A stretch of DNA of 64,000 nucleotides from Octopus vulgaris (Eukaryota): contig OX597815.1 of NCBI GenBank assembly GCA_951406725.2, forward strand, positions 86,552,001 to 86,616,000, written 5' to 3'. The position numbers were made by a program, and so were the translations under genes. The notes beneath the pieces were generated by a model. The model searched no databases, had not been told where the DNA came from, and saw only the letters and a list, made by a program, of their open reading frames with translations. Below, one piece after another: positions 1,693-61,040 of this stretch. The stretch's first letter is position 1. Every line of letters starts with the position of its first letter.

Positions 1693-2580
1693 TTTTCAAA
1701 TTTTGTCACAAGGCCAGCAATTTCTGGGGTTAAGTCGATTACATCGACCCCTATTATCAACTTGTACTTATTTTATCGACCTCGAAATGAATAAAGGGAA
1801 AGTCAACCTCGGCGGAATTTGATTTCAAAACATGAAAACGGACGAAATACTGCTAAGTGTTTTGCCCGGCATGTTAATGATTCTGTCAGCACGACGCCCA
1901 ACTTTATGTGTGAATATTCTTTTCCACTCTAGGCACAAGGCCCCAAATTTTGGGGAAGAGGGTCAGTCGATTAGATAGACCCCAGTACGTAACTGTTACT
2001 TAATTTATCGACCCCGAAAGGATAAAGGCAAAGTCGACCTCGGCGGAATTTGAACTTAGAAGGTAAGGACAAACGAAATACCGCTAAGAGATTTGCCCGG
2101 GTTGCTAACGTTTCTTATTTCTTTACTGCCCACAAGGGGCTAAACATAGAGGGGACAAACGTTTCTTATTTCTTTACTACCCAAAAGGAGCTACACACAG
2201 AGGGGACAAACAAGGACAGACAAACAGATTAAGTCGATTACATCGACTCCAGTGCGTAACTGGTACTTAATTTATCGACTCTGAAAGGATGAAAGGCAAA
2301 GTCGACCTCGGCGGAATTTGAGCTCAGAACGTAACGGCAGACGAAATATCTATTTCTTTACTACACACAAGGGGCTAAACACAGAGGACAAACAAGGACA
2401 GACAAACGGATTAAGCCGATTATATCGACCCCAGTGCGTAACTGGTACTTATTTAATTCACCTCGAAAGGATGAAAGGCAAAGTCTACCTCGGCGGAATT
2501 TGAGCTCAGAACGTAGCGGCAGACGAAATACGGCTACACATTTCACCCGGGGTGTTAATGTTTCTGCCAGCTCGACACCT
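1693..2580 (-). mobile_element. Head-to-tail array of four tRNA-derived octopus-type SINE copies
   Basis: Four repeats of gtcgattacatcgacccc...tttatcgaccccgaaaggatgaaaggcaaagtcgacctcggcggaatttgaactc (minus-strand B box gagttcaaattcc); inner copies lack the 5' head. Confidence 0.9.
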
Positions 2581-27899: not shown

Positions 27900-30584
27900 T
27901 AGTTTTATTTTTATAGCGTGCTTTCACTTCACTACCGAGCGCAGCTCTGTGTGCCTTGGGTATGTGTTGTGATTTGTTGCGATGCTCTGATGATTATTGT
28001 ATGGAAAGTGTTCTGCGTAGGATGTGTGCAGTGCCTAGTAGTGCAATTTTCTGTATGTTATATGTGTTTGTAAGTCCTGGTGTTTTTGTTATGTATTTGT
28101 CTGAATATTTTTTTATCATGCCTAATGCACCGACTATGATAGGAATTGTTTCTGTTTTCAGATTTCACATTCTGGTTACCTCTATTTCCAGGTCTTTGTA
28201 TTTTGAGAGTTTCTCCATTTCTTTTAGAGATACGTTGTCATCTGCCGGTATTGATACATCAATTAGAAAGCATTTTTTTCTTCATGATCTCTGACAACTA
28301 TATCTGGCCTGTTGGCCTTAATTTCTCTTTCTGTGTGTATCGGCATATCCCAGAGTATGGTTGCTTTCTCGTTTTCTGTGACCTTTTCTGGTGTGTGCCT
28401 ATACCATCTTTTTTCTGTTGTTATTCCATAATGTTGGCATAGCTTCCAATGTATGTAGGTTCCAACTCTGTCATGTCTGTGAATATATTCCTTCTTAGCC
28501 ATGACTGGGCAGCTAGAGATAATATGATTTATTGTTTCTTGTCCATCTCCACATATTCTGCAGTTACTTGTAATATTTCTTTTCATTACATGTTTTTGGT
28601 AATTTCTGGTGGGGAGGCTTTGGTCTTGTGCTGTAATTAAAAATCCCTGTTTCTGCTTTGAGTCCTGAGCTTCTCAACCATTGCTGGGATTTTTCTTTGT
28701 CTATTTCTTTTGCGTTTAGTTTAGTCCAGTATTTACCATGAAGGGGCTTTTCTTGCCATCGTTTTATCATGGTTCGTTGCTGTTCTATTTTTAGTTTGGA
28801 TTTCATTTGTTTTATAGCTTTTGTTGTTTCTTCATCTTCTTCTTCTTCTTCATATTTATTAGGTGGTATGATTTCTTGTTTGTATTTGTCAGCTTCCTTA
28901 AATACTGAGAACAGTTTTTTTGTTTTGCTCGTGTTTTGCCGCTATTTGTATCAGTTTTCCTTCATTCTGAAGTAGATATTTTTGCAGTCCTATGGTGGTT
29001 ATTTTATAGTAGCTTTCCAGTTGTATAAGGCCTCTACCACCTTCTATACGTTGTATATATAGTCTTTCTATGTCAGATTTTGGGTGATGCATCCTAGATC
29101 CTGTCATTATTTTTCTTGTTTTCCTATCTATTTTGGTCAGCTCATTTCGTGTCCAGTTAAGGATATTGTAGCTGTAACTTATAACTGGGACAGCTAAAGT
29201 GTTAATACCTATTATCTTGTTTTTAGCATTGAGCTCTGTTTTTAGTATTGATCTAACTCGTCTATATTATTCTTTTTTTATTTTCTCTTTCATTTGTGTG
29301 TGTTGTGTCTTATCTAGTTCATGGATTCCTAAGTATTTGTAAGTTTGGCTTTGGTCTAATTCTTTTATTTCATTGGTTTTATCTAGTGTGATGTTGCTAC
29401 TCTTAACTAGTTTTCCTCTTTTCATGGTTACTTTGGCGCATTTTTCTAATCCAAATTTCATATATATTTCTTTGGTAAATCCATGAACTGTCTTTAATAG
29501 TGTTTCCAGCTGTTTGTCATTTGCAGCGTATAGTTTTAGGTCATCCATATATAAAAGGTGGCTGATCGTTTTGCCGTAACATTTATATCCGCATCCAGTT
29601 CCATTTAGTATATCAGATAGAGGTGACAGTGCCAAGCAGAAAAGGAGTGGAGAGAGCGTGTCTCCCTGGAATATTCCTCTTCTAATGGGGATGTCTTTGG
29701 TTTTCATGAGTCCCTCTTTTGTTTGGAGGTGTAGGACTGTTTGCCATTTACTCATAGAGTGCTCTATGAATTTTATGATTGTTGGTGCTACTTTGTTAAT
29801 GGCTAGTGTTTCGAGGATCCATGTGTGGGGGATGCTATCAAACGCCTTTTTGTAGTCAATCCAGGCCATACTGAGGCCTTTCTTCTTTCTGTGGCTGTCT
29901 TCAGTTATGGCTTTATTAATCATTAGTTGATCTTTACAGCCATATGAGCCTTTGCGGCATCCTTTCTGCTCTTCTGGGAACAGTTTGTTTTCGTCCAGGT
30001 GCTTGTTCAACCTTTGCGATATCACTGCAGTAAATGCCTTGAACATTGTAGGGAGGCAGGTTATTGGTCTGTAGTTTTCTGGTTTTGCTGTCTCATTTGA
30101 TTTGGGAATTAAGATGGTTTTCCCCTTCGTGAGCCATTCAGGCATTGTCTCTGGCTCTGCTAGTATGTTGTTAAAGTTTTCAGCCAGCTTTTTGTGCATT
30201 CCTGTTAGATATTTCAACCAGAAGTTGGGGATCTTGTCATGCCCACGTGCCTTCCAGTTGCTTAGTCTTTGCAGTGCTTGGGTGACCTCTTCAGTTGTTA
30301 TGGGGGTCCAAAGTTGTTCAGATGCCGAGTTTGTTATTTTGATACTCCTTTTTTTTTTGGTTGTTCGTTCGCCGACCATATTTCTCTCCAGAATTCTTCC
30401 AATTCTTCTGCCGTTGGTGCTGCAGTGACATCTATTTTATTTTTGCCAATTTCTTGGTAGAAATTTTTGGGGTTGGTGTTGAACTTTTTGTTTTGCTCAA
30501 AGAAGCGCTGGCGTTTCTCGTACCGGCGGATCCTTTGTGCTTTGGCAAGGATATCTTGCTTCAGCTTTTCTTTTATCTCAGGTT
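27897..30584 (-). mobile_element. Young 5'-truncated R4/Dong element with (TAA)n tail, embedded in TAA repeats
   Basis: Long open RT frame, CRICGDGQETINHIISSC knuckle, RPDIVV..KYKDLEIEV RLE; 3' UTR ends aaaataaaactactg(AAT)n; 5' junction in (TTA)n at ~30584. Confidence 0.95.
29267..30379 (-). CDS. Reverse transcriptase domain of the R4/Dong element (part of an interrupted ORF)
   Basis: NYRPITCLP, EQKGC, WIDYKKAFDSIPH, GIFQGDTLSPLLF, HLLYMDDLKLYA, YKYLG; ends at an in-frame TAA where YY is expected. Confidence 0.9.
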   Translation of the reverse strand: MVGERTTKKKRSIKITNSASEQLWTPITTEEVTQALQRLSNWKARGHDKIPNFWLKYLTGMHKKLAENFNNILAEPETMPEWLTKGKTILIPKSNETAKPENYRPITCLPTMFKAFTAVISQRLNKHLDENKLFPEEQKGCRKGSYGCKDQLMINKAITEDSHRKKKGLSMAWIDYKKAFDSIPHTWILETLAINKVAPTIIKFIEHSMSKWQTVLHLQTKEGLMKTKDIPIRRGIFQGDTLSPLLFCLALSPLSDILNGTGCGYKCYGKTISHLLYMDDLKLYAANDKQLETLLKTVHGFTKEIYMKFGLEKCAKVTMKRGKLVKSSNITLDKTNEIKELDQSQTYKYLGIHELDKTQHTQMKEKIKKE

Positions 30585-31146: not shown

Positions 31147-34100
31147 TCATTATTATTATTGTTATTATGTAGGCACTGAATTTGCGTGATCAAAAGAATT
31201 CTGAACTATATGCATGGCAACATGTAATTCGCAATAACACACACATTCACATACACACCATTTATATGCCTGTGTGTGTATATATATATGTGTGTGTGCG
31301 TGTGTGTATGTATGTTGTTATTTAATGTATGTGTGCATGTGTAAATCTATGAATGTGTTTGTGTGTACTCGTAGATAAACGAATGCTAACATATACACAT
31401 ATTTACAGACATACGTACACATGTAAACATATTTACATTTAGAGAAACGTATTTTAAAACAAGATGCTTACTACGTCCTATTTGCAATGTTAGTTTCATT
31501 CTTCGGCTTTAAGTGAAGAGTAAAATTCCCGGAAGGGAATTGACGATGTTTATCTCTTTTTTTATTTCCCTATTTCTCGTTTTTTTTTGTTTTGTCTTTT
31601 CAGCATTCAAAGATGCAGTCGTCTACGTATGATGAGACAATGCTAATAATTAAAAACACAAATTTATAGGTAGTTTTGTTCATAGATAAAATTTAGATAA
31701 AAAAATAGAAAGACAAGATACTGCCAGATAAAGATGTTTATTCTTGTTTTAAAATCAGAGAGATAATAGTTTTCCTGAATATAATTATATATAATTTCAG
31801 TTAAGAGATATCGACCAGGAGACTTGGAAGGAACTCTTTCCCAACCAGCATGATTGTGTGCATTGGAAGAATTAAATATATTACAGTGCTTCTAGTTATC
31901 TTCGTGAATATTAGTATTATTGAAGCGACACATTCTTGGCACAGAATACTAAGCTAGCATAATAAATAAGTAACTCAACGAAATTGCATAAAAGACCAAG
32001 TATGGCAAATGCATTTCCTCATATAAATAAATGCCAGATATAACTGTTACTGTTGTATTGCCGTCATGTCCCAGAAAATAATCATCTTCGGATTTTGGTC
32101 TTCATTCTTACATTCTTCTGGGGTTGGGTTTGTGTGTGTTAGTGTCTCCTGCTATACTGCTAACTTAAGATGAACCCTATCAAACCTTCAAGGTTATCAA
32201 ACACACATAAACTAATATCAATGCACTGGAGAAAGAAATCAGGAAGCTCGATACCTGCAAGTTTTCTGTCTGTTTGGATAACCGATTCCAAATACACTTT
32301 AGTGTGGTAATTAGTTATATATTCTTCGTTGACCGTTCACTGTGTTAGGGATGTTGTATGACCACATTGAAATTTATTTGCGTTTTGAAATATTTTATTA
32401 CCCAACTTTATTAATATTTACAAGTGCGTCAAATTAATGGAACAAAGTTCAACGAACATGATAGTTAGGAATCTTCTGTAATGCGACTTGCTGACTTCTA
32501 TTAGGAAAGTAGCTGAAAGAGTTTAAATTACGGCATATAATTATACGGCGCTACAAATTAAGACGGGGTTATTTTTCTCGGGTAAAACGTTTTAGATAAG
32601 GAAAGTGAAAGAGTAGAAGAGATCAACTCACTAAGACAAGTGACAGAAATTCGTGCAAATGACTGAGTAATTCTCTGGCCTGATGATGAATTTGCCAGCT
32701 TTATAGTCGTAAGCCACCCCTTTAGAATTCTCGGCAAAGCTGCTTGGCGGAAAAATTCGCACACTTCCTTTGGAGTTTGTCGCATTAATCATAAGTCAGA
32801 CAGTGCTAATGGGTCGAGTCATATACATTATGGCGTTAATACACTTTATGATGACACTTTTACATTCTATGGAGACACATTATGTTGTGGCTGACGATTA
32901 GGAATATCTAAGCGCTATGGTTCAAATCCCAGCAAGTACCTCGCCCGAATCCCATATGCTTTAGCCTATTATCTCAGATTGCTGAACTACATCTCAAATT
33001 TTTGAGCTATGCACGTTCATATATGCACGTTCATACATCCATATTATTGATGAAATTATAAACACATTATTTCCAATTTTGGCACCATACCGCTGATCGA
33101 AGGGGACGTTAAATTTGACTATATATTCTCTAGTATATTAGTGAACTTGTTTTCTCCTCTTTTCTCCATAATGGGTTTTAAAAATTTGTTCACTTGTTAC
33201 TTGATAAAAGTTGAAGACAGTGATAGTTGAAATCAGAATTTAAAGCACCGAAACTAAATACTTCGAACCATTTAGTGATACTTGGCGTCATAACCAATGT
33301 CCCGATATAATGTTATGTTTAACCCAGATAATAAAAGTTAAATTGAAGATGAATAGTGCTGTGGTTTTTTGTTGCCCTCTCTATAACCATATCATTGCTA
33401 AAATCCCTACTGCTGTCAGAAATTCATGATTACTTTTGTAGATATTTTCTAAATATCTGGAGCAAATTTACCTGCATGATATGAATACACACTGATTCCG
33501 TGACATTAAAAAAAAAGAATTAAAATACACAACTTATCACAGTGTAGCTACAAGACATAAAAATGTGGAAATTACAAAACATAAACATGTGAAAATCGTA
33601 TGCGCATGCTTACTTCAAGAAATGTAAATATCTTATGTTTCCCGTAATCTGTTAGGAATTTGTGTTTATGAAAATAGTGTATTTTATACATGCATGGCAT
33701 TTTCACTGAAAGCAGAAACTTCAGCAAGTGTGGTTCTCTGACTACTAAATAGCTCTACTCTCACGCCCACTTTAATGAAGTTATTGTGATTTGTCTATGA
33801 AACAAACAACTTTTGTTTCCGATCAATAACATGATTCGTGCGATCGAAAATTCAACGTTTTCTTAACGAAGTCTTTTGTTCTTTTGATTTCACTAAACAA
33901 ATTCTATTGTCAAAAGATAGTACATAACAAAACATTCATCATCTTGCAGATCAAAGTCAATTTAAAAATGACAAGTTTTCGCAAAACACTGCAGAATTTC
34001 CATTCGTTGATAACTAACATTGATCGAAAGACAGCCTTCCTACTGAGAAAGACTAATGATTTTTCAATGATTCTGAGACTACAATACTTCCATATGCAAT

Positions 34101-35891
34101 TATAGAAAAACAGTAGTAGAACGGATCTCTATTCCCGCTTGAAACATTTCACTTATGAATCTAATACACGAAATAAGATATACACTATCCATATTATCCC
34201 TTATGCTTTTCAGTAAGAGGTGTTACTTCCAGAAATAAACTACGTACTTAACTTTACGTTGTCAATGTTTTAAGATAAGGAAATACATTCATAGTAATAA
34301 TAAATACATTACACACATTACATCAACCTTTACTGTCCCTGAAATATGCATTATTGCCAAGTCACACGAAACCATTTGCAGAACGCTAGATCCTTCATAT
34401 CCAAATTTGTGCGGTAGATATAAACGGTATAATACATTTTCTAAGAAAAACTGATTTAGGAAAATAGGATGGGTTGACTTCCTAATGTCTTCTGTAGTAT
34501 TTCACTAAGAGTATATTTTCATTAACACTTATTACATTTATTTGCTCCATTAGCATTATAATGTCAAATAATCAGAATGTATTTTCAACTTACCCACTGC
34601 ATTTAGATCAATGCTCTTCCTTCAGAAGTCTCCATAAAAAATATTGTAGTGATGTGTGTGTGAGTGTATGAGTATATGTGTGTGCGTGTGTGTCTGTCTG
34701 TGTATGTGTGTCTGTGTGTCTCTGTGTGTGAGTGTGTGTATGTGTGTATTTATTTATGCATTGATGTATGTATGCTTGTAAATGTGAATTTCTGCACAAA
34801 TCCTGTTTATGGTTCAACCTAATCAGCTGCATAATGAAATAGAATCTGGAATCGCTCGATTGGGATCCTACAACATTACTAGAATCACAAGGTTTATTTA
34901 TTTAAACTGTAGAAGAGTGTCCTTAAGATGATTTTGACCAGTCAACTCAAAGAGCCTGTCTTGAATTTTGGTTCACAGTTTAAGTATGTGCAGAAGCATT
35001 ATAGTCACCGATATGGGAATAGTTCAGGAGAGGCAGCCGTGGTATTAGCTTTGGTTCTCTACATTCTGAACTGAAATTCCACGAAGGTCAATTTACCTTA
35101 TACCCTTCTGAATAAAGTATTGTCAAGTTCTAAGATCGACTTAGATGAGTACCTCCACTCCATACATTTATGTTATAAAGAATTATGTTTTTTTTATTAA
35201 AGATAAATCGTTTTTCTTTACAAGAAAAGTTTTAGGTTAGTGTTTAGGAAATATTTCTGGCAGTTATGTGAACCGAGGCATGTAAAGCTAAATCGTTCTC
35301 CTACGGCTTCACAGTAACATGTATATTATATCTGAACTTGTAACAAATGAGCCTGATACTTCAATGAAGCATCCATCTCTCATTTAAATATTTTATTCAT
35401 TTGTGCAGAAATACATCAATTCAAATATTAAATTATCAGTATTTTCTGCTTGAATCTCTGTGATCATATTAGACAAATTTAATAAATAAAGGTAAATAGA
35501 GAGCTGTAAATTTCTTTGTAGAAAACCATTTACTTTCTCAAACATCTAAATACTATAGTACGAGATCTATGGAATCTTTTCGCTCATGAACAGATTTACC
35601 GATTTTTCTTTTAATTTCAACTACGTCAAAAAATAACGTTTTATTCACAGTTGTTTAATACTCACCCCTCCCACACAGACACACATACACACGTGTGTGC
35701 ATGCGTGTCTGTGTAAACTGGATACGTTATTATGTGTATACATATGTATGTATGTTCTTATATATGTGTGTGCTTGCTTTTTTGTAAACTTATGTATAAA
35801 ACTAGTTAAATTGAAGTATAACCATAATTTTCAGAAGGATATCATATATGTGAGATTTTGGGTGTATTGTAATCATATATGCATGTATGTA

Positions 35892-35943
<52 letters not shown>

Positions 35944-36162
35944 GTATATATATATATAAAGGGGTTTGTATGATTGTGTATAGAGGGATATATATTATTC
36001 AAAGAAATTCCAACTCTGTCTGTTTTTTATGTTTTATTTATATTCTTTATAATATTAATGTAGAATATAGAATATATAGTATAAATAATATATATATAGT
36101 AAAATGAAATGAAGTATTGATTGTCTTATTGAATAGATCAAATATTGAATATAAAATATTAA

Positions 36163-36206
36163 GGGACTAGTATACTTTCTTGCATTATAGCAGTCTTCTA
36201 GGTCCC
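36163..36206 (-). ncRNA. Inverted copy of the same hammerhead-like motif with a core substitution (CUAGAAGA)
   Basis: Reverse complement reads gggac-ctagaaga-ctgctataatgcaa-gaaa-gtatac-ta-gtccc. Confidence 0.5.
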
Positions 36207-36244
36207 AGGTTGTGACACGTGTTGAAACACTATTGTCACAACCT

Positions 36245-36288
36245 GGGACCTTGAAGACTGCTATAATGCAAGAAAGTATACTAGTCCC
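36245..36288 (+). ncRNA. Minimal type I hammerhead-like ribozyme (Penelope-type, CUUGAAGA core)
   Basis: gggac-CTTGAAGA-ctgc(tataat)gcaa-GAAA-gtatac-TA-gtccc: 5-bp stem I, stem II tgc/gca, palindromic stem III AGTATACT. Confidence 0.6.
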
Positions 36289-36935
36289 TTAATATTTTAT
36301 ATTCAATATTTCATCTATTCAATAAGACAATCAACACTTCATTTCATCTTACTATATATATATTATTTATACTATATATTCTATATTCTACATTAATATT
36401 ATAAAGGATATAGATAAAATATAAAAAAACAGAGTTGGAATTTCTTTGAATAATATATATACATACAGAGAGAGAGAGAGAGGGGGGAGATAGGGAGAGA
36501 GAGAGGAGAATTTGTTTGGTGGCTTGAAAATGCACCTGAATCTAAAATAGGTGTAGTTTTTAAATTGATTTATTCACATACCAAACTAGTTTCAGACAAT
36601 GTTTTGCATATCGATGGTACAAATACGTATAACAAAAAGGGGTTTAGCAGAGTTTAAGATTATAAGGTTAAAATTGGACAAACATGTTTACAACAAACAT
36701 TTAATATAGATAATATCTACGAGATTTCTCCCACAATGCTTGGATGTACCCGACGTTATTGTCGAAGGCACTTGTCTACATGATGCAGCTTATACAAGTA
36801 AAAAAGGTCGTGGAAATGCTAACGTCAACAGAATATTATCGCTAAAATAGAAACAGTGACACATTACAGCATTCATAGCATTCACAATACAAACAGCTAA
36901 TTCAAACCAGCCAATGTAAATGCCAGAAGAACTCC

Positions 36936-37690
36936 ATGCTGCCGATTAGGTATTTTCTCATAAATAGCCGTGTTGAGTCGTTCCATCTGTTGAACATAGA
37001 GTTCTGCGTGGACCGTTTGGTTCCCTTCAAGCAATTCGTAATGGATAATCCCTTCTCAGTCCCACCATACGCACAACATCGTTTTATGCGGATGAAGATC
37101 TTGTTTCACACGCGGTGTCGCTTCTTTACCGGGGCTAAGCCATTCCTTACGCTGCTTCATATTCATGTACAGGCGCCAATTTTCGTCGCCAGTAACGATT
37201 CGGTAAAAAAATCGTTGCTTGTCTCCATGAATTGAGCGGTGACGAGCAAGCAAACCAGCGGAGATTGTGGCTCATTGATATTTTTTCTTATCACTTAAAG
37301 CATGCGTTCCGCATGCTCCATACTTCTGAACCTTTCCCATCGAGTGAAGATGCTTCCCTATAGCAGTGTGGGATCATTCCATTTTCTCTGCCAGTTCCTT
37401 TGACGTTTGACGAGAATTTTCGTGCAAATTTGGTTTAATCGCTCTTCATTGAACTCAACTGGACGACCAGAACGAGGTGCGTGTTTGACGTCAAAATTTC
37501 CATTTTTGAACTTGGCATACAATCACGAGCGGTTCTTTCAGCTATGGCACCCTCTCCATACACAGCACAAATGTCGCGTGCAGCTTTTGCGGTCTTAGAA
37601 CCTTAATTAAAAGCAAAAAGGAAGTGTCGAAAATGCTCGTTTTTTTTTACATTCCATTTTAATGATCTGAAAATGAACTCTTAGAATAAA
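36936..37690 (-). pseudogene. Degenerate mariner (Tc1/mariner) transposase, N-terminal and central part
   Basis: KNGNFDVK..PRSGRP, RIVTGDENW, KEWL..G..TPRVKQDLHPHKTMLCVWWD, YELL; frameshifted, TIRs not seen. Confidence 0.9.
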
Positions 37691-37865
37691 CGCTTCTGTT
37701 TTTATTTAATTATTATAAATCTTCCACTGAAGAGGGAGTCGGTTTCCAACAAAGATATAAGCATCCATCCATCCATCCATCCATCCATACATACATACAT
37801 ACATACATACATACATACATACATACATACATACATACATACATACATACATACATACATACATG

Positions 37866-38090
37866 GACAACAGCTTTGAAATCCCCGGCTTCTGTATGCA
37901 AACTATGAATTCATATTCATACCAATAATAATTGGAGCACTAGGTTTTGTCAGTAAATGCTTAAAGAACAGTCTGGATAAACTGGAATTTTCAGAAAGAG
38001 AAATCGAGCGCCTAATTCGTACGTTACAACTGCAATCTGTGAGTGGAACAGCAAAAATATGCAAGACTTTTCTCAAGTGCCAAATGTGAA
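37866..38090 (+). mobile_element. Extreme 3' fragment of an R4-clade element
   Basis: [54 protein letters not shown]. Confidence 0.75.
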
Positions 38091-38119
38091 TTTGCCTGTG
38101 TAAACTACATCCCAACGAT

Positions 38120-38268
38120 GGAGCTTTATATCTTTGTCTACAAAATCCATTCACAAGGATCAGGTCGGAGGCTACAGCAGAACACACTTGGCCAAGGTGC
38201 CACGATATGGGACTGATCCCGAAACCATGTAATTAGGAATCAGGCTTCGTACCACGCATTCACGCCAT
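38120..38268 (-). mobile_element. SINE with CORE-like acttggccaaggt motif
   Basis: aaatccattcacaagg...gaggctacagcagaacacacttggccaaggtgccacgatatgggactgatcccgaaacc. Confidence 0.75.
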
Positions 38269-38495
38269 CAGTTGTGAATGTGTTCGGGTTGTGTTTCATA
38301 AATAACTGTCTGTGATCACATAACTGATGTCCGAAGGCAATATATATGTATATATAAATCATCAGTTATGTGATCACAGGCAGTTACCTATGAAATTGTG
38401 TGTATGAACAAAGGATAATAAGTTTCGCATTATAATACGTACACATAGTATTTTTCATATATACATGTATGTTTGAGGGCAGAAGTATGCGTGTG

Positions 38496-38552
<57 letters not shown>

Positions 38553-38582
38553 TATATACATATGGATACATACATACATATA

Positions 38583-38622
<40 letters not shown>

Positions 38623-40789
38623 CACACATATATATGTATATATATATATATATATTGTATATATATTTATATATATATGCATATACAAGCATACATATAT
38701 ATGTGTGTGTATGTTTGTATGGATGCATGTATGTATTATGTATGCTTTCACATATCGACACGCATACATACACACACAATCAGCAACAACAACAATATAC
38801 TTATAACAATTGTTTTCAAGATTCTGATTATATCTTTCGAGCCTTTCAAAGTTATAACTAATAAGAATAACTCAACTTTCAGGCAAAAAATATTGATGAA
38901 ACAAACCGTTGTACCTCAGTGTATGTAAGTTCTTCTTTTCTTTGTTGTTTTATTTTTAGCTAGCTATATTAATTTCAGACACTCTAAATGATATAAATAT
39001 TTTATCTATATCATATACAGAACCGTATTGATTAATACATCAAGTCTATCAACAAGAGGAGAAAAAATGGCTACTTTATAAATGATTAAAACGAAAACAT
39101 TTATTTTGTTTTATTCAATACTAGTATACAACTCAGTTACGATTCCAGTACTATTTTTATAGGCAATAATTTTATCTACCTGTCTAGATAATAAGTATTT
39201 ACAACTATCTAACTGTTATAATCTAAAACTTTTACTAGTAGCATCCACACAGTCTACAACTACTGACTATTTAAGCAACAGAAAAAAGCATATAATTAAT
39301 TCTAACTTAGGTGCAGCCAGATATTTTGACATGGGTGTTGCTTTCCCCACAGACTAAACTATTAAGAAAAAAGCTTTCTTTGTTACGTAGCTTTGTGCCA
39401 TCTTTGGTTGAGCTGTCTTAGGTTCAAAGGCTTTCCAGCTGTAATCATTTTCTTTATTTAAACTTAATATACCAATTACTAAATATTGAAGATGTGGCTT
39501 TAAGGTTTAATCGGCTACTATTTGTAGCACACCGAACCAGCACATACAGGCTTTTTTGCTGGCGGTGTTATAACTCTTTATTATTTACATGTTGATTTCC
39601 TTAAACTTCGGGAAGTATACGATTTATTTAATTATTTTAGATATATTATTTGTATTATAGTGGTTATTTTCCCCACGTCTCAATTTAAAGTACTTATCTA
39701 TGATTAAAGTCTATTTATATCTACGTCAGTATCCGATCCTTAAAAATATGTTGTTTGTGGTCTACTGTTGTGAATTAGAATCCCACCAGTATTGCTTTTA
39801 CGTTTCATCAATCTGTAAATAAACGTCAATTATACATACGCACACACACACAAACACATATACATACATACATATATATATATATATGTGTGTGTGTATG
39901 TGTGTGCGCGCGCGCGTGTGTGTGTGTGTGTGTGTGTGTGCAAAGAGAGAGAGAGAAAGAAGGAGTGAAAGTTGGATGAGAGAGATCCTCTTGACGCAAA
40001 TACAAATAGATTCTGATATAAATATCAGATTATGTAATGGGGAATGAGCGTCGCATTAAAAATGGAGATTATATTAATTCCTAAATTTGTGTAAAGATGC
40101 AAAAGACACTCGTATAGAAAAAAGACTGCGGGAGTAATATGGAAGCTAATTATAAGTATGTTTACTCCAGACTCAGTACACTTTGTTTCTGTCGCGTGGG
40201 TTAAATTCTAACTGTTCGAGACTCAAACGAAGGACAATATACTTATGTAATTTCTTCAATAAGAGAGCCAGAGGAACAGAGAGACAGAAAGGGGAAGAAG
40301 GGAGAAAGAAGGGGAGAGAGAACGACAAAGAGAGAGATAGAATAAACTCTGATTCTTTATATAAGTCATGAGAATCACTAGAAATCGTTACACATTAAAA
40401 AGGAAAGATTTAAATTGATATTTTTAAAAAGTTGTAAAAGTGCTCTGTGGTGTTTTTTTCTCCCCATTTGAAATATTCTATTCATTTGTTCTTCCATATT
40501 GATTTTGTTACTCCATTTCAATGTTTGATAAGACATTCGTGCAAATGTCTGTTTGGCGAGCTTCTTATAGTTTGTTGTATTTTGTAATTAAGCGATTGTA
40601 GACTTGATGACTATAAATGTAATTAAAATTTGTCACATTCTCGATAGGGAAAGTATAGTGCTTTGTTTTAAATTGATGATAAATTTTGTAGCTCCCGGAA
40701 AATTCAACTGAATGTGAAAGAGAGAAAAATCAGATATACCATAAAACATTATGCGTTTAATTAACAAATCAACAAAGAGCTTGATTTGT

Positions 40790-57436: not shown

Positions 57437-60400
57437 TTGGCATGGAAGACATGCTGGCTTGCGTGGTGCAGTTGCAACAGCAACAACAGTAACAATACCA
57501 GTTATAACAACAACATCAACAGCAACAACATCAATACAAACAGTTACTAGAAGTAATGTTGAAGACGTCTGTAAATACTTCAGGTTCGTTCTCGTTAGAT
57601 AGCGTAGCAAATTCAATTAGAGAATTTATTTATAACCCAGAAGTAAGTACTACTTTTTCTGTATATTTTAGAAGATACGAAGAAATCTTTAAAGAAGAAT
57701 GTAAAAATTGAAATGACGAGACTGTGCGACTACATTTAAGAAAGTTATCCCCTGCCAGTCAAGAAAAATACTGTAACTGTATTCTGCCGAAGAAACCAGG
57801 TGAAATTTGATTCGATGAAACAGTTAATTTGTTCTAGAGAATTTTCAGTGAAAGGAGTTCCCTGTTCAATACTCGTTGGCAATGACGAAATTCAGTTTAA
57901 AAAGATGAAGATTTCGTCACCTAGGTCGTTAACAGAGAGTGTGAAAATTAACCCCGGATTTGCTCAAAAGTCTAATTTTTGTTCAAGGGTTAATGGCAAG
58001 AAATGATGCTGATATACGCTCCCGTATACTAGCAAAATTAGAACAGGATCAAATATTAACTCTACAGACAGTGGCTAAAGAATACTAGTGGATTATAAAT
58101 TTAAAACATGACGTGGATAAAACTGAAGAAAAAGATGGCTCTCAGATACATGCCTGTCGACCTGAAACGGATAAGCGAAAAGAAAAACGAACGTCAAGAC
58201 CAAATCCATGGTATGGATGCGGAGATTTACATTTTAAAAGTAATTGTCCTTTTAAAAATCGTAAATGTTTTGATGTGGAAAAATCGGATATAAAAGCTCA
58301 CGTTTTATAGCGAAACAAAATAAAAGTGTCGAACTAATAAGATTCTAGAAAGAATGTAGTGTTAAAACAAATTCTAAGCGAAACTCAGAAAAGAAACTTT
58401 CTGTCCATAAAATTGAATAATGGGAACAAGTTAAAATTGGATATAAGCAGTGACATCACGATAATTAATACAGAGTCATGGAGAAAATAGGGGAAAATAG
58501 ATTAAAGGAAACTTCAAAAATTGTGCGATGTGTTTCAGGAAAAAATTTGCATTTTATGGGCGACATAATAAGTGATGTTACATTTCGTGGAAAAACTTTG
58601 AAAGCCAAATACAACAAATTTATTTGGGACTGACTTGTAAAAATGTGAATGGTTCCTCCGCCAGTGCAAAGAAGGCATCGGGGGATCTTAAAAATAGTTA
58701 AAACAAATTCTTCTTTAAGTTTTTTTCTGGGGAATTGGGTTTGTGCATCAAAACAGAGGCGAAGTTTCAATTGAAAGAAAACACTATACCGGTATTTAAA
58801 TCTAAATGAAGAATTGGATAGACTTGAAAAGTTTGGCATTATTGATTACCCAGAATGGGTGTCTCCAATAATTTATGTCAAGAAAATAATAAAATCCGAG
58901 TATGCGCTGATTTTTCAACGCGATTAACTGAATAATCGATGCCATATAATTACCCGTTACTACGCCTGGAGGAAATTTACATGAACTTGAATGGAGGATT
59001 TTTTTTGTTTTCAAAGTTGGACCTATCTGAAGCCTATTTTCAGTTAAAATTTGATGAGAAATGTTCAAAATGCCCATAAAGGCTTGCATAAATCTAATCG
59101 ACTCACTTTTGGTATAGATTATGGACATTAGACTCGCAGGTACGGATTTCGCTGTAGCTTACCTTCATGACATACTTATAAAAAGTAAATCTCGAGATTA
59201 GCATGCTGAGCATGTTAAAAATGTCTTTGAAAAGAACAAAAGAGTATGGTTTTAAGCTCAACGACGAAAAGTGTAAATTTTGCATGCCAAGAATAAAATA
59301 TCTAGGGCAGAGTATTGATGAAAACGGACGTAGACCAGGCCCTTCTAGGGCGAGTGTAATAAAAAATATGCCTTCCCCCAACGAACAATACAATGTGAGA
59401 AGCATTTTGGGGCTTGCAAATTATTACCAAGTATACATACTGAATATGCACGATTTAAGAGCACCCCTTGTTAAAAAAAAGACGTTAAGTGGAACTGGTC
59501 GGACAAATGCCAAAAAGCTTTTTAAAAAATTTAAATGTCTTAACATCGGAATGTCGTTATCACATTTTGACCCGAATTTAGAAATGGTAGAGGCAGCATA
59601 TGCTAGTGAAAGTGGTATTGGAGTTGTGATTTTGCACAAGAATGAAGATGTTAGCCTGAAAGCAGTAGCTCATGCTTACCGTCATTTATTGCCCGTTGAA
59701 AAAAGCTACAGTAAAAAATGAAGCATTAGCCATCATATCTGCGGTAAATAAAACTTCCATAAATTTATTCATGGAAAAAGGTTCCCTCCAATTATGGTCG
59801 ATCTATGGATCAAAAAAGGGTATTCCTACTCATACAGCCAGCAGACTGCAGCACTGGGGAACGATCCTATTGAATTACGACTTCAAAATGGAGCATTTGT
59901 CATCGAAAAGATGGTTTGTCAAGATTAATACCAAAATACAGTGAACCACTAGAAGATACAGTGATAGCGGCGGTAAAAGCCGAAAATAAAAAATATATAT
60001 ATATTGTGCAATGTTGTGCGTGAATTGCCTTTGACACTAAGGCAGAGATGGACGAGTTTATCATAAAAATGAAAACAATAATGAGGTCAGAAGAAACAAA
60101 AAAAGAGTACCTGTGGATGGACGTAACACAGTTTCGAATTTGTATTCAATAAATGATATTGTTTTTAACTATGCACAGAGGGACGTAATGCCTACCTTAC
60201 TACGAGGTCGAATGTTAAAGGAATTTTCGCACTGAACATCCAGGAATTTCTAGAATGAAGTCGCTTATGAGGAGTTTACTGGCCAAAAATGGATCTAGAT
60301 ATCAACTTGGTACAATCCTGCAGATCTGCAGCGAAAGCACCACCTATAAAATTTCAACCTTAGCCCAAGACCGATATTCCATGGTCCAGAATACACATAG

Positions 60401-61040
60401 ATATCGCGGGACCGTTAAACCGATCATATCATCTAATCGTGGTAGATAGCTTTAGTAAATGGCCAGAAATGTGTAAATGCAGAAAACCGACATCCACGGT
60501 TGAATTTCTACACGAACTTTTCCCTAGGTATGGTGTCCTGGATACCATAGTCTCCGATAACGGTATACAAATCACGGCGAATGAATTTAAGAATTTTTGC
60601 AAGTACTCAATTGAACATATTACTACTACTCCGTTTTGCGCAAAATCTAACGGACAAGAGGAAAAGTTCATGGATACATTTAAAAGCACATTAAAAAAAT
60701 CAATAAAGTAGCTAGTCGATGACGCAGCATTGACACAGTCCTGGAGGGTTAATAGGATAACACCAAACCCAAACGCTTTTTCAGGCAAGTCGCCTGCGAA
60801 ACTAATGTTTGCTCGAAAAATTAAGTCAAATTTTGACAAGCTGCTACCAGTAAGAAAAAGAAATAGGGAAAACACTAAAAATACGACAAAGTATTTTGAT
60901 GTCGGTGACAAAGTTTTTTCAAAATATATAAAAATGGAAGACATGGTTGGGAAGACGGAGTAGTAACAAAAAGATTAAATAAAATGACATATACGATAAG
61001 AGGCGAAAAATGGGAACACAACGGGCATTTAAACCAGTGA
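57437..61040 (+). mobile_element. Degenerate Ty3/Gypsy (Mag-like) retrotransposon internal region, gag-PR-RT-RH-IN
   Basis: Gag NSIREFIYNPE..TFSVYFRRYEEIF; knuckle region PWYGCGDLHFKSNCPF; PR LDISSDITII; RT FSKLDLSEAYFQ, KCKFCMPRIKYLG; RH ASESGIG; IN VDSFSKWPE, IVSDNG, SNGQEEK. Confidence 0.92.

What the first reader, a model, noticed from the sequence alone, without database searches (positions are those of the whole stretch)
35988..36460. 470-bp palindrome built around two divergent hammerhead-like ribozymes
Seen: ~230-bp arms with about ten differences, a 16-nt spacer, and a motif next to the centre on each strand with type I hammerhead geometry (stem I gggac/gtccc, core CUUGAAGA, stem II, GAAA, palindromic stem III AGUAUACU, UA site). 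The left copy has a core U>A change. The unit lies between (TA)n and (GA)n tracts. Established: Penelope-like elements carry minimal hammerheads with palindromic stem III that work as dimers, and they often form inverted pseudo-LTR structures. Inference: this is a non-autonomous fold-back retroelement whose transcript can form either a long dsRNA hairpin (a Dicer/ADAR substrate) or a self-cleaving fold.
Basis: partly seen in the sequence, partly recalled or inferred. Interest (0 to 1): 0.75.

Follow-up and report, generated by a model that had tools for sequence, protein, structure and literature searches.

The report
Head-to-head Penelope retroelement stubs, octopus
This mirror-image sequence is two short, aged end pieces of a common Penelope-type jumping gene joined back to back, a known layout likely made in one insertion event; its ribozyme motifs carry an extra core base predicted to cripple cutting, and nothing here shows an RNA switch.

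Summary
The palindrome is real: the arms match at 220 of 227 positions plus a 3-nt indel. It is not a unit element. Each arm is a copy of a 250-280 bp repeat (565 exact 17-mer hits). Longer copies run upstream into a reverse transcriptase + GIY-YIG frame, and an intact tandem relative places the unit between its promoter and ORF start. So this is the pseudo-LTR of an EN+ Penelope-like element (Neptune/Nematis-type linker). That is the published inverted-pLTR-plus-tail signature. The junction is unique in the genome. The hammerhead ancestry is genuine (sister subfamilies have CUGANGA and compensatory stem I changes), but this subfamily has a one-base core insertion, no G10.1-C11.1 pair and neutral decay, and 0 of 66 mapped copies start at the cut site. 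The hairpin beats the ribozyme fold by about 72 kcal/mol. Opposite tail status in 17 of 23 palindromes favours double priming. The scan has reported this architecture before, in this genome and others. Ordinary, with modest mechanistic value.

The parts
35895..35957 (.). (TA)n microsatellite, the likely insertion target; no target-site duplication discernible
   Evidence: 35895-35958, period 2; most family copies are flanked by (TA)n
35958..35987 (-). 30-bp Penelope 'tail' on the left arm only (between the family's two 3' end points, +221 and +250 counted from the first base of stem I)
   Evidence: homologous to the 5' arm and AC-rich bulge of a predicted stem-loop before ORF1 in intact relative L245
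35988..36217 (-). left arm: 5'-truncated pLTR copy starting at -10
36163..36206 (-). left hammerhead-derived motif with an extra private core change (U>A at 36199; allele frequency 0.007 among 152 copies covering the site)
36218..36220 (.). head-to-head junction, 3 nt, inside an 8-bp palindrome (36215-36222); unique in the genome
36221..36460 (+). right arm: pLTR copy from -23 (just inside the Inr-like start) to +221, no tail
36245..36288 (+). right hammerhead-derived motif: stem I 36245-36249/36284-36288; core 36250-36257 with a one-base insertion; 3-bp stem II 36259-36261/36268-36270; palindromic stem III; predicted cut 36283/36284
36461..36509 (.). right flank, a short TA/CA run and then (GA)n; host microsatellite, not part of the element

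Best explanation
This is two short, decayed pseudo-LTR copies of an endonuclease-positive Penelope-like retroelement joined head to head in a (TA)n tract, likely built in one insertion event by double priming. SHOWN: the arm is a multi-copy repeat; longer copies carry a TATA-like box, 3' UTR and RT + GIY-YIG frame upstream; an intact tandem relative has the homologous segment between promoter motifs and ORF1; one arm has the tail and the other does not. INFERRED: (1) a source element is transcribed from the pLTR promoter, starting at the Inr-like CAGT near -26; (2) the RT-EN protein nicks both strands of a (TA)n target; (3) one DNA end primes reverse transcription at the outer internal start (+250) and the other at the inner one (+221), as the anole element PAc does in vitro with two start sites bounding the tail; (4) both cDNAs run towards the RNA's 5' end and are joined there by microhomology, giving a palindrome with one tail; (5) when only one end primes, a solo 250-280 bp copy results, which is the common outcome. 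The RNA copied was likely uncut by its hammerhead, which in this subfamily is predicted to be weak or dead. The copy has no promoter of its own and has decayed neutrally.
For: Copy number: 565 and 705 exact marker hits, controls 0. Link to an ORF: GIY-YIG PF01541 E 1e-7 in L057; a 607-aa open frame with RVT_1 (E 7e-5, below Pfam's cut-off) directly upstream of a subfamily-A unit in L162; its best homologues are RT + GIY-YIG proteins, the named ones mostly from bivalves or bivalve-associated records. Intact tandem relative L245: 4271-bp period, copies 99.98% identical, the unit's homologue between promoter motifs and ORF1, terminal copy ending at the inner end point in (TA)n. 5' ends: 18 of 30 unselected copies start at -28..-17; 0 of 66 mapped copies start at +39..+41. 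Tail status: opposite in 17 of 23 scorable head-to-head loci, the same in 6 (binomial p 0.017); 3 more were unscorable. Arms share alleles at 6 polymorphic columns more than random pairs (15 of 67 differ vs 46%), and the window's arms differ at 0 of 5. Four loci have the junction as a 5-nt overlap on a quasi-palindrome with a central mismatch (L017, L125, L130, L131); this suits two annealed cDNA ends better than a hairpin with a 1-nt loop (inference). Literature: PMC3846280, PMC8557442, PMC11167929.
Against: No intact full-length subfamily-A source was found: L162 is 5'-truncated, and only the 40 best candidates were scored. 6 of 23 palindromes have concordant tails. The loci were gathered by several searches, not drawn at random, and the polymorphic columns are linked, so both p-values are optimistic. 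The transcription start is inferred from motifs and copy ends, not from RNA. 9 of 66 copies start at +45..+58, just downstream of the predicted cut, and one inverted arm starts at +38 (L161). These could be trimmed products of cleaved RNA, although that stretch is AT-rich and matches the (TA)n target. Clade assignment rests on one motif, not on a tree.
Confidence: 0.85

Rival explanations
1. Same element, but the mirror arm is made by fold-back self-priming of one cDNA (or of an antisense template), not by two priming events.
For: Palindromes sit at the junctions, including an 8-bp one here. The window's arms share all 5 scored polymorphic sites. Arkhipova et al. read junction palindromes as self-priming (PMC3846280 passages).
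Against: It does not by itself explain opposite tail status in 17 of 23 loci. Arms differ at 15 of 67 polymorphic positions, more than the roughly 6% that two arms decaying at about 3% each would give, which suggests two templates in some loci (L051, L125, L126, L181). Those columns may, however, be hypermutable.
Confidence: 0.25
2. One reading: a non-autonomous fold-back element that is mobilised as a palindrome and switches between a dsRNA hairpin and a self-cleaving fold.
For: The hairpin would form if transcribed (MFE -325 kcal/mol). The motif has real hammerhead ancestry.
Against: The junction is unique. Most copies are solo arms. The ribozyme fold costs about 72 kcal/mol. The core insertion is fixed in the subfamily, and insertions near C3 impaired cleavage in PMC3088659. 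Ribozyme positions mutate like the rest of the unit (0.025-0.040 vs 0.031). There is no A>G strand bias and no TATA-like box in this copy.
Confidence: 0.04
3. Assembly fold-back artefact.
For: No public contig bridging the junction was shown in the runs laid; this is inconclusive by the tool's own terms.
Against: The arms differ by 7 substitutions, each rare (under 4%) in the family, plus an indel and the tail; a chimeric read would copy itself. 26 differently built head-to-head loci were seen.
Confidence: 0.02

Closest known systems
Insertion architecture of EN+ Penelope-like elements: inverted 5'-truncated pLTR with an optional 30-40 bp tail (Pen2a_Av, PMC3846280; overview in PMC8557442)
   Same: Head-to-head pLTRs, a palindrome at the junction, a 30-bp tail on one arm, TATA + Inr in the pLTR, a microsatellite target, a hammerhead in the pLTR.
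   Different: Here no ORF lies between the arms: both are start-site-to-RT-start stubs. No TSD can be seen in the TA tract.
Neptune/Nematis clades of EN+ PLEs (PMC8557442)
   Same: C-terminal GIY-YIG with two cysteines between the motifs and two later histidines; C-X4-C-X2-C linker before the EN; (TA)n flanks.
   Different: Neptune versus Nematis not resolved (no tree). The intact relative L245 has a separate ORF1 overlapping the RT-EN frame.
PAc (Poseidon of Anolis carolinensis), in vitro (PMC11167929)
   Same: Two 3' end points bounding the tail, an AC-rich stem-loop, AT-rich targets, and an uncut RNA as the apparent template.
   Different: In PAc the ORF starts inside the hammerhead and the start sites lie in the ORF; in L245 they lie before ORF1. 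The PAc core is canonical and cleaves with protein help; this core has an insertion.
Minimal/atypical PLE hammerheads (PMC4209133) and animal non-LTR retrozymes (bioRxiv 10.64898/2026.07.22.740005)
   Same: Type I geometry, 5-bp stem I, a palindromic helix III suited to dimers.
   Different: No G10.1-C11.1 pair, and a one-base core insertion. Copies are dispersed monomers or inverted pairs, not head-to-tail arrays, and their ends are not at the cleavage site.

Membership tests
EN+ Penelope-like element (pLTR) | RT followed by C-terminal GIY-YIG endonuclease in longer copies of the same family | tested here: met
   intact relative
EN+ Penelope-like element (pLTR) | CCHH motif in the endonuclease (two cysteines between GIY and YIG) | tested here: met
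   read directly from the translations; definition from PMC8557442 introduction
EN+ Penelope-like element (pLTR) | Tandem or partial-tandem arrangement forming pLTRs around the ORF | tested here: inconclusive
   met for relative L245; no full-length subfamily-A copy with an upstream pLTR found among the top 40
EN+ Penelope-like element (pLTR) | Inverted 5'-truncated copy and optional 30-40 bp tail on one end | tested here: met
EN+ Penelope-like element (pLTR) | Hammerhead motif in the pLTR | tested here: met
   canonical cores in sister subfamilies B and C; degenerate in A
Neptune/Nematis clades | CX2-5CxxC linker upstream of GIY-YIG | tested here: met
   C-X4-C-X2-C in L056, L057, L078 and L162
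Neptune/Nematis clades | RT phylogeny grouping with reference members | not tested
Type I hammerhead ribozyme | Stem I closing the core, kept by compensatory change | tested here: met
   GGGAC/GUCCC in A (89-94% Watson-Crick per pair, 102 copies) vs UGAAC/GUUCA in B and C (13 and 12 copies): two pair swaps, one lineage event each
Type I hammerhead ribozyme | Core C3-U-G-A-N-G8-A9 directly after stem I | tested here: not met
   A has two bases between stem I and UGA, B and C one; the left window copy also has U>A
Type I hammerhead ribozyme | G10.1-C11.1 pair | tested here: not met
   C.A in 93 of 102 A copies, A.A in 11 of 13 B, U-A in 12 of 12 C
Type I hammerhead ribozyme | GAAA, A15.1-U16.1 and an NUH site; palindromic helix III for dimers | tested here: met
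   helix III self-duplex -9.2 kcal/mol
Type I hammerhead ribozyme | Self-cleavage | not testable with these tools
   needs an in vitro assay; indirectly, 0 of 66 copies start at the cut site
Non-LTR retrozyme | Head-to-tail tandem units, each with a complete hammerhead | tested here: not met
   no tandem unit array at this locus; none among 30 unselected copies
Fold-back / MITE-like palindromic unit | Same internal junction in many copies | tested here: not met
   1 hit genome-wide; junctions differ among 8 loci

The most novel reading that the evidence does not exclude
In this octopus Penelope lineage the hammerhead has been kept as a shape rather than a cutter. Stem I co-varies and helix III stays palindromic while the core drifts (a base inserted in A, A.A at 10.1/11.1 in B, U4C in the intact young relative), and subfamily A still reached many hundreds of copies. 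The fold would serve to dimerise two RNAs or bind the RT-EN dimer so that both target ends are primed at once, and that would be what builds these palindromes.
Probability: 0.2. Interest if true: 0.55.

Novelty: new member of a known kind. Interest (0 to 1): 0.22.

Why it matters
The locus itself is a dead stub and matters little. The family gives a usable natural dataset on two open points of Penelope biology: how inverted pLTRs with one tail form, and whether the pLTR hammerhead needs to cut. Here tails are mostly opposite between arms, copies start at the promoter and not at the cut site, and a subfamily with a core insertion amplified anyway. An intact young relative in the same genome (L245) would make both points testable in vitro.

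Tried and rejected
Rfam scan at E<=10: no hammerhead model matched. Earlier findings by sequence: nothing. Sequencing runs: no RNA holder listed; no conclusion on expression. Contigs of 4 runs on 35000-37400 and of 4 runs on 36178-36274 (7 different runs): none shown bridging the junction. One run matched 842 bases of the left flank without a difference, but only about 80% of it was read and contigs break in repeats, so this is inconclusive. Host gene: 112 stop-to-stop frames of 75 aa or more gave only retroelement domains (4 frames); short exons would be missed, so an intronic position is not excluded. ADAR footprint in family copies: none. A suspected autonomous copy at two hammerheads 2 kb apart (L091) had no RT frame among its ORFs. 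L243 and L244 carry RT pieces but no pLTR in the 7 kb fetched. Search by Pfam PF26215: family not in the library. A MITE reading was rejected because the unit is a single arm with retroelement-type ends. Papers searched for an octopus PLE hammerhead: 5 papers held both terms; the 4 listed did not describe one by title or abstract. An octopus repeat annotation lists Penelope families, with no occurrence of 'ribozyme' or 'hammerhead' in its main text; its supplements and Repbase/Dfam were not seen and may hold this family.

Full report
OBSERVATION. The inverted repeat is as described: 35988-36217 against 36234-36460, with 220 matches, 7 substitutions and one 3-nt indel. Both arms hold a hammerhead-like motif facing outwards from the centre, and the left one has the U>A change at 36199. 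Rfam found no hammerhead among 66 weak matches in 33000-39000. The genome has 2.8 Gb in 227 contigs. I take it to be an octopus from its size and from recalled repeat types; an earlier scan note on the same genome says the same.

THE UNIT IS ONE ARM. A genome search with the right arm gave 1574 first-look candidates, of which 40 were scored, with full-length hits at 93-97% identity. Exact markers gave 565 hits (ribozyme 17-mer) and 705 hits (downstream 19-mer), with 0 for reversed controls; these are lower bounds. Among the first 30 hits by position, 7 have an adjoining inverted piece (two of them duplicates of one locus) and 23 do not. An exact pattern for full head-to-head pairs found 8 loci whose junction sequences differ, three sharing one type. 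This window's junction occurs once. Counting from the first base of stem I, copies end at about +221 or +250. The window's left arm runs to +250 (35958), its right arm to +221, and the right arm begins at 36221, so the true gap is 3 nt.

IT IS A PENELOPE pLTR. Some copies with exactly this ribozyme variant extend upstream through a TATA-like box at -58, a 3' UTR and a stop codon into a GIY-YIG domain (L056, L057, PF01541 E 1e-7). Of the 30 loci fetched with that region as query, 28 carry the subfamily-A motif and 2 the B motif. L162 has a 607-aa open frame with RT motifs directly upstream (RVT_1 E 7e-5, below cut-off). Its homologues are RT + GIY-YIG proteins, up to 58% identical over nearly the whole query (493 at E<=1e-30 among 7996 scored). 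The linker C-X4-C-X2-C fits Neptune or Nematis (PMC8557442, introduction and passages). A young relative, 76% identical in protein, lies in tandem at L245 (period 4271 bp, 99.98% identical copies). Between its RT-EN stop and the next ORF1 lie CCAAT boxes, a TATA-like and an Inr-like motif (named from recall), a hammerhead, the AT-rich stretch and the homologue of the tail. The tail there is the 5' arm and AC-rich bulge of a predicted stem-loop. Its last copy ends at the inner end point in (TA)n. The window unit is thus the segment from the likely transcription start to the likely RT start sites.

WHAT IS KNOWN. Inverted pLTRs with junction palindromes, a 31-bp tail on one arm and TATA + Inr are described for rotifer Penelopes (PMC3846280, passages) and as general PLE features (PMC8557442, passages). 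For the anole element PAc, the protein cuts and extends both strands, RT starts at two internal sites that bound the tail, and hammerhead cleavage is not needed for insertion (PMC11167929, parts 1-2 of 4). PLE hammerheads, their dimer fold, their low activity and opposite-strand pairs 100-700 bp apart are in PMC4209133 (parts 1-2 of 4). A preprint derives animal retrozymes from pLTRs (10.64898/2026.07.22.740005, part 1 of 5). Penelope families are annotated in octopus (PMC13282606, passages).

THE RIBOZYME. A pattern for the canonical core plus this helix III gave 60 hits against 2 for the control. They reveal subfamilies B and C with CUGAUGA or CUGAAGA cores; their cores are canonical partly by selection of the search. 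Stem I is UGAAC/GUUCA there and GGGAC/GUCCC in A, two compensatory swaps, so the fold has been under selection in source elements. In A, however, stem I pairs well only with one extra base before UGA (89-94% per pair in 102 copies, against 3-6% at two pairs in the canonical register), and 10.1/11.1 is C.A in 93 of 102. Natural insertions near C3 strongly slowed cleavage in PMC3088659 (section 9); that was a different, two-base insertion, so this is an analogy. L245 has U4C and a U.U mismatch. Inserted A copies decay evenly: 0.025-0.040 substitutions per site in ribozyme parts against 0.031 elsewhere, 186 copies. With a marker downstream of the ribozyme I mapped 66 copies: the first 30 unselected, and 36 from 34 regions chosen among the next 70 hits for lacking the exact ribozyme 17-mer. 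36 start at -32..-15, 6 further upstream, 6 at -11..-3, 6 at +3..+20, 3 at +33, 9 at +45..+58, and none at the cut (+40). The +45..+58 group could hide trimmed cleavage products but coincides with AT microhomology.

HOW THE PALINDROME FORMED. Of 26 head-to-head loci gathered (24 of subfamily A, 2 of B), 23 could be scored: 17 have a tail on one arm only, 3 on both and 3 on neither (my tally; binomial p 0.017; the sample is not random). Arms of 19 loci differ at 15 of 67 polymorphic positions against 46% for random pairs, so most share a source lineage. The 22% is still above simple decay, and some loci may join two templates. In the window the arms agree at 5 of 5 such positions, and all 7 substitutions are rare alleles on one arm (2 left, 5 right). 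They look like later mutations and argue against an assembly fold-back; the indel is a common family polymorphism. The best reading is double priming at the two start sites with joining at the 5' ends; fold-back self-priming remains possible.

THE SWITCH IDEA. A transcript through the locus would fold as a 234-pair hairpin (-325 kcal/mol); forcing stems I and II costs about 72 kcal/mol. Only one ribozyme is in sense on either strand. The copy starts downstream of the TATA-like box. A>G and T>C changes are balanced across the family (186 vs 188, p 0.35). Passive dsRNA formation by read-through is possible but not shown.

VERDICT. The feature is real and of a known kind, and the scan has noted it repeatedly (those notes are leads, not support, and my tail and allele tests, came before I read them). 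The family-level data on ends, tails and core drift are of modest use to specialists.

Noticed in passing
L245 (G000:C1:38875500-38885400, minus strand): Young intact tandem Penelope-like element with two overlapping frames: ORF1 (454 aa stop to stop, no Pfam match) overlaps the 775-aa RT-EN frame by about 90 nt in the -1 frame, at an A7-TCCA-T7 run kept in 4 of 5 loci where it was seen (T6 in L241). Candidate programmed -1 frameshift in an EN+ PLE. PMC8557442's figure legend mentions frameshifted ORF1s without naming the clade in the text seen; one paper search showed no direct description by title or abstract.
   Followed up: partly
L245:5350-5400 (minus): The hammerhead of this young family has U4C, a U.U mismatch at 10.1/11.1 and a shorter palindromic helix III.
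   Followed up: partly
L238, L239, L240, L242: Long copies of the L245 family with inverted pieces, the textbook PLE layout.
   Followed up: no
window 28266-30436 (minus): LINE-type RT (RVT_1 E 2e-32) and zf-RVT fragments.
   Followed up: no
window 59182-60708 (plus): RT/RNase H-like and integrase fragments of an LTR-type retroelement.
   Followed up: no
window 36860-37400: Another very high-copy repeat right of the palindrome (summed contig depth above 1e5 in three of four runs); not identified.
   Followed up: no
window 2107-2530: Two tandem 182-bp copies of a SINE-like repeat; recalled as an octopus SINE, not tested.
   Followed up: no
L110-L113, L115 (contig C17) and L102, L104, L105 (contig C30): Long subfamily-A copies sharing flanks: segmental duplications, not separate insertions.
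   Followed up: no
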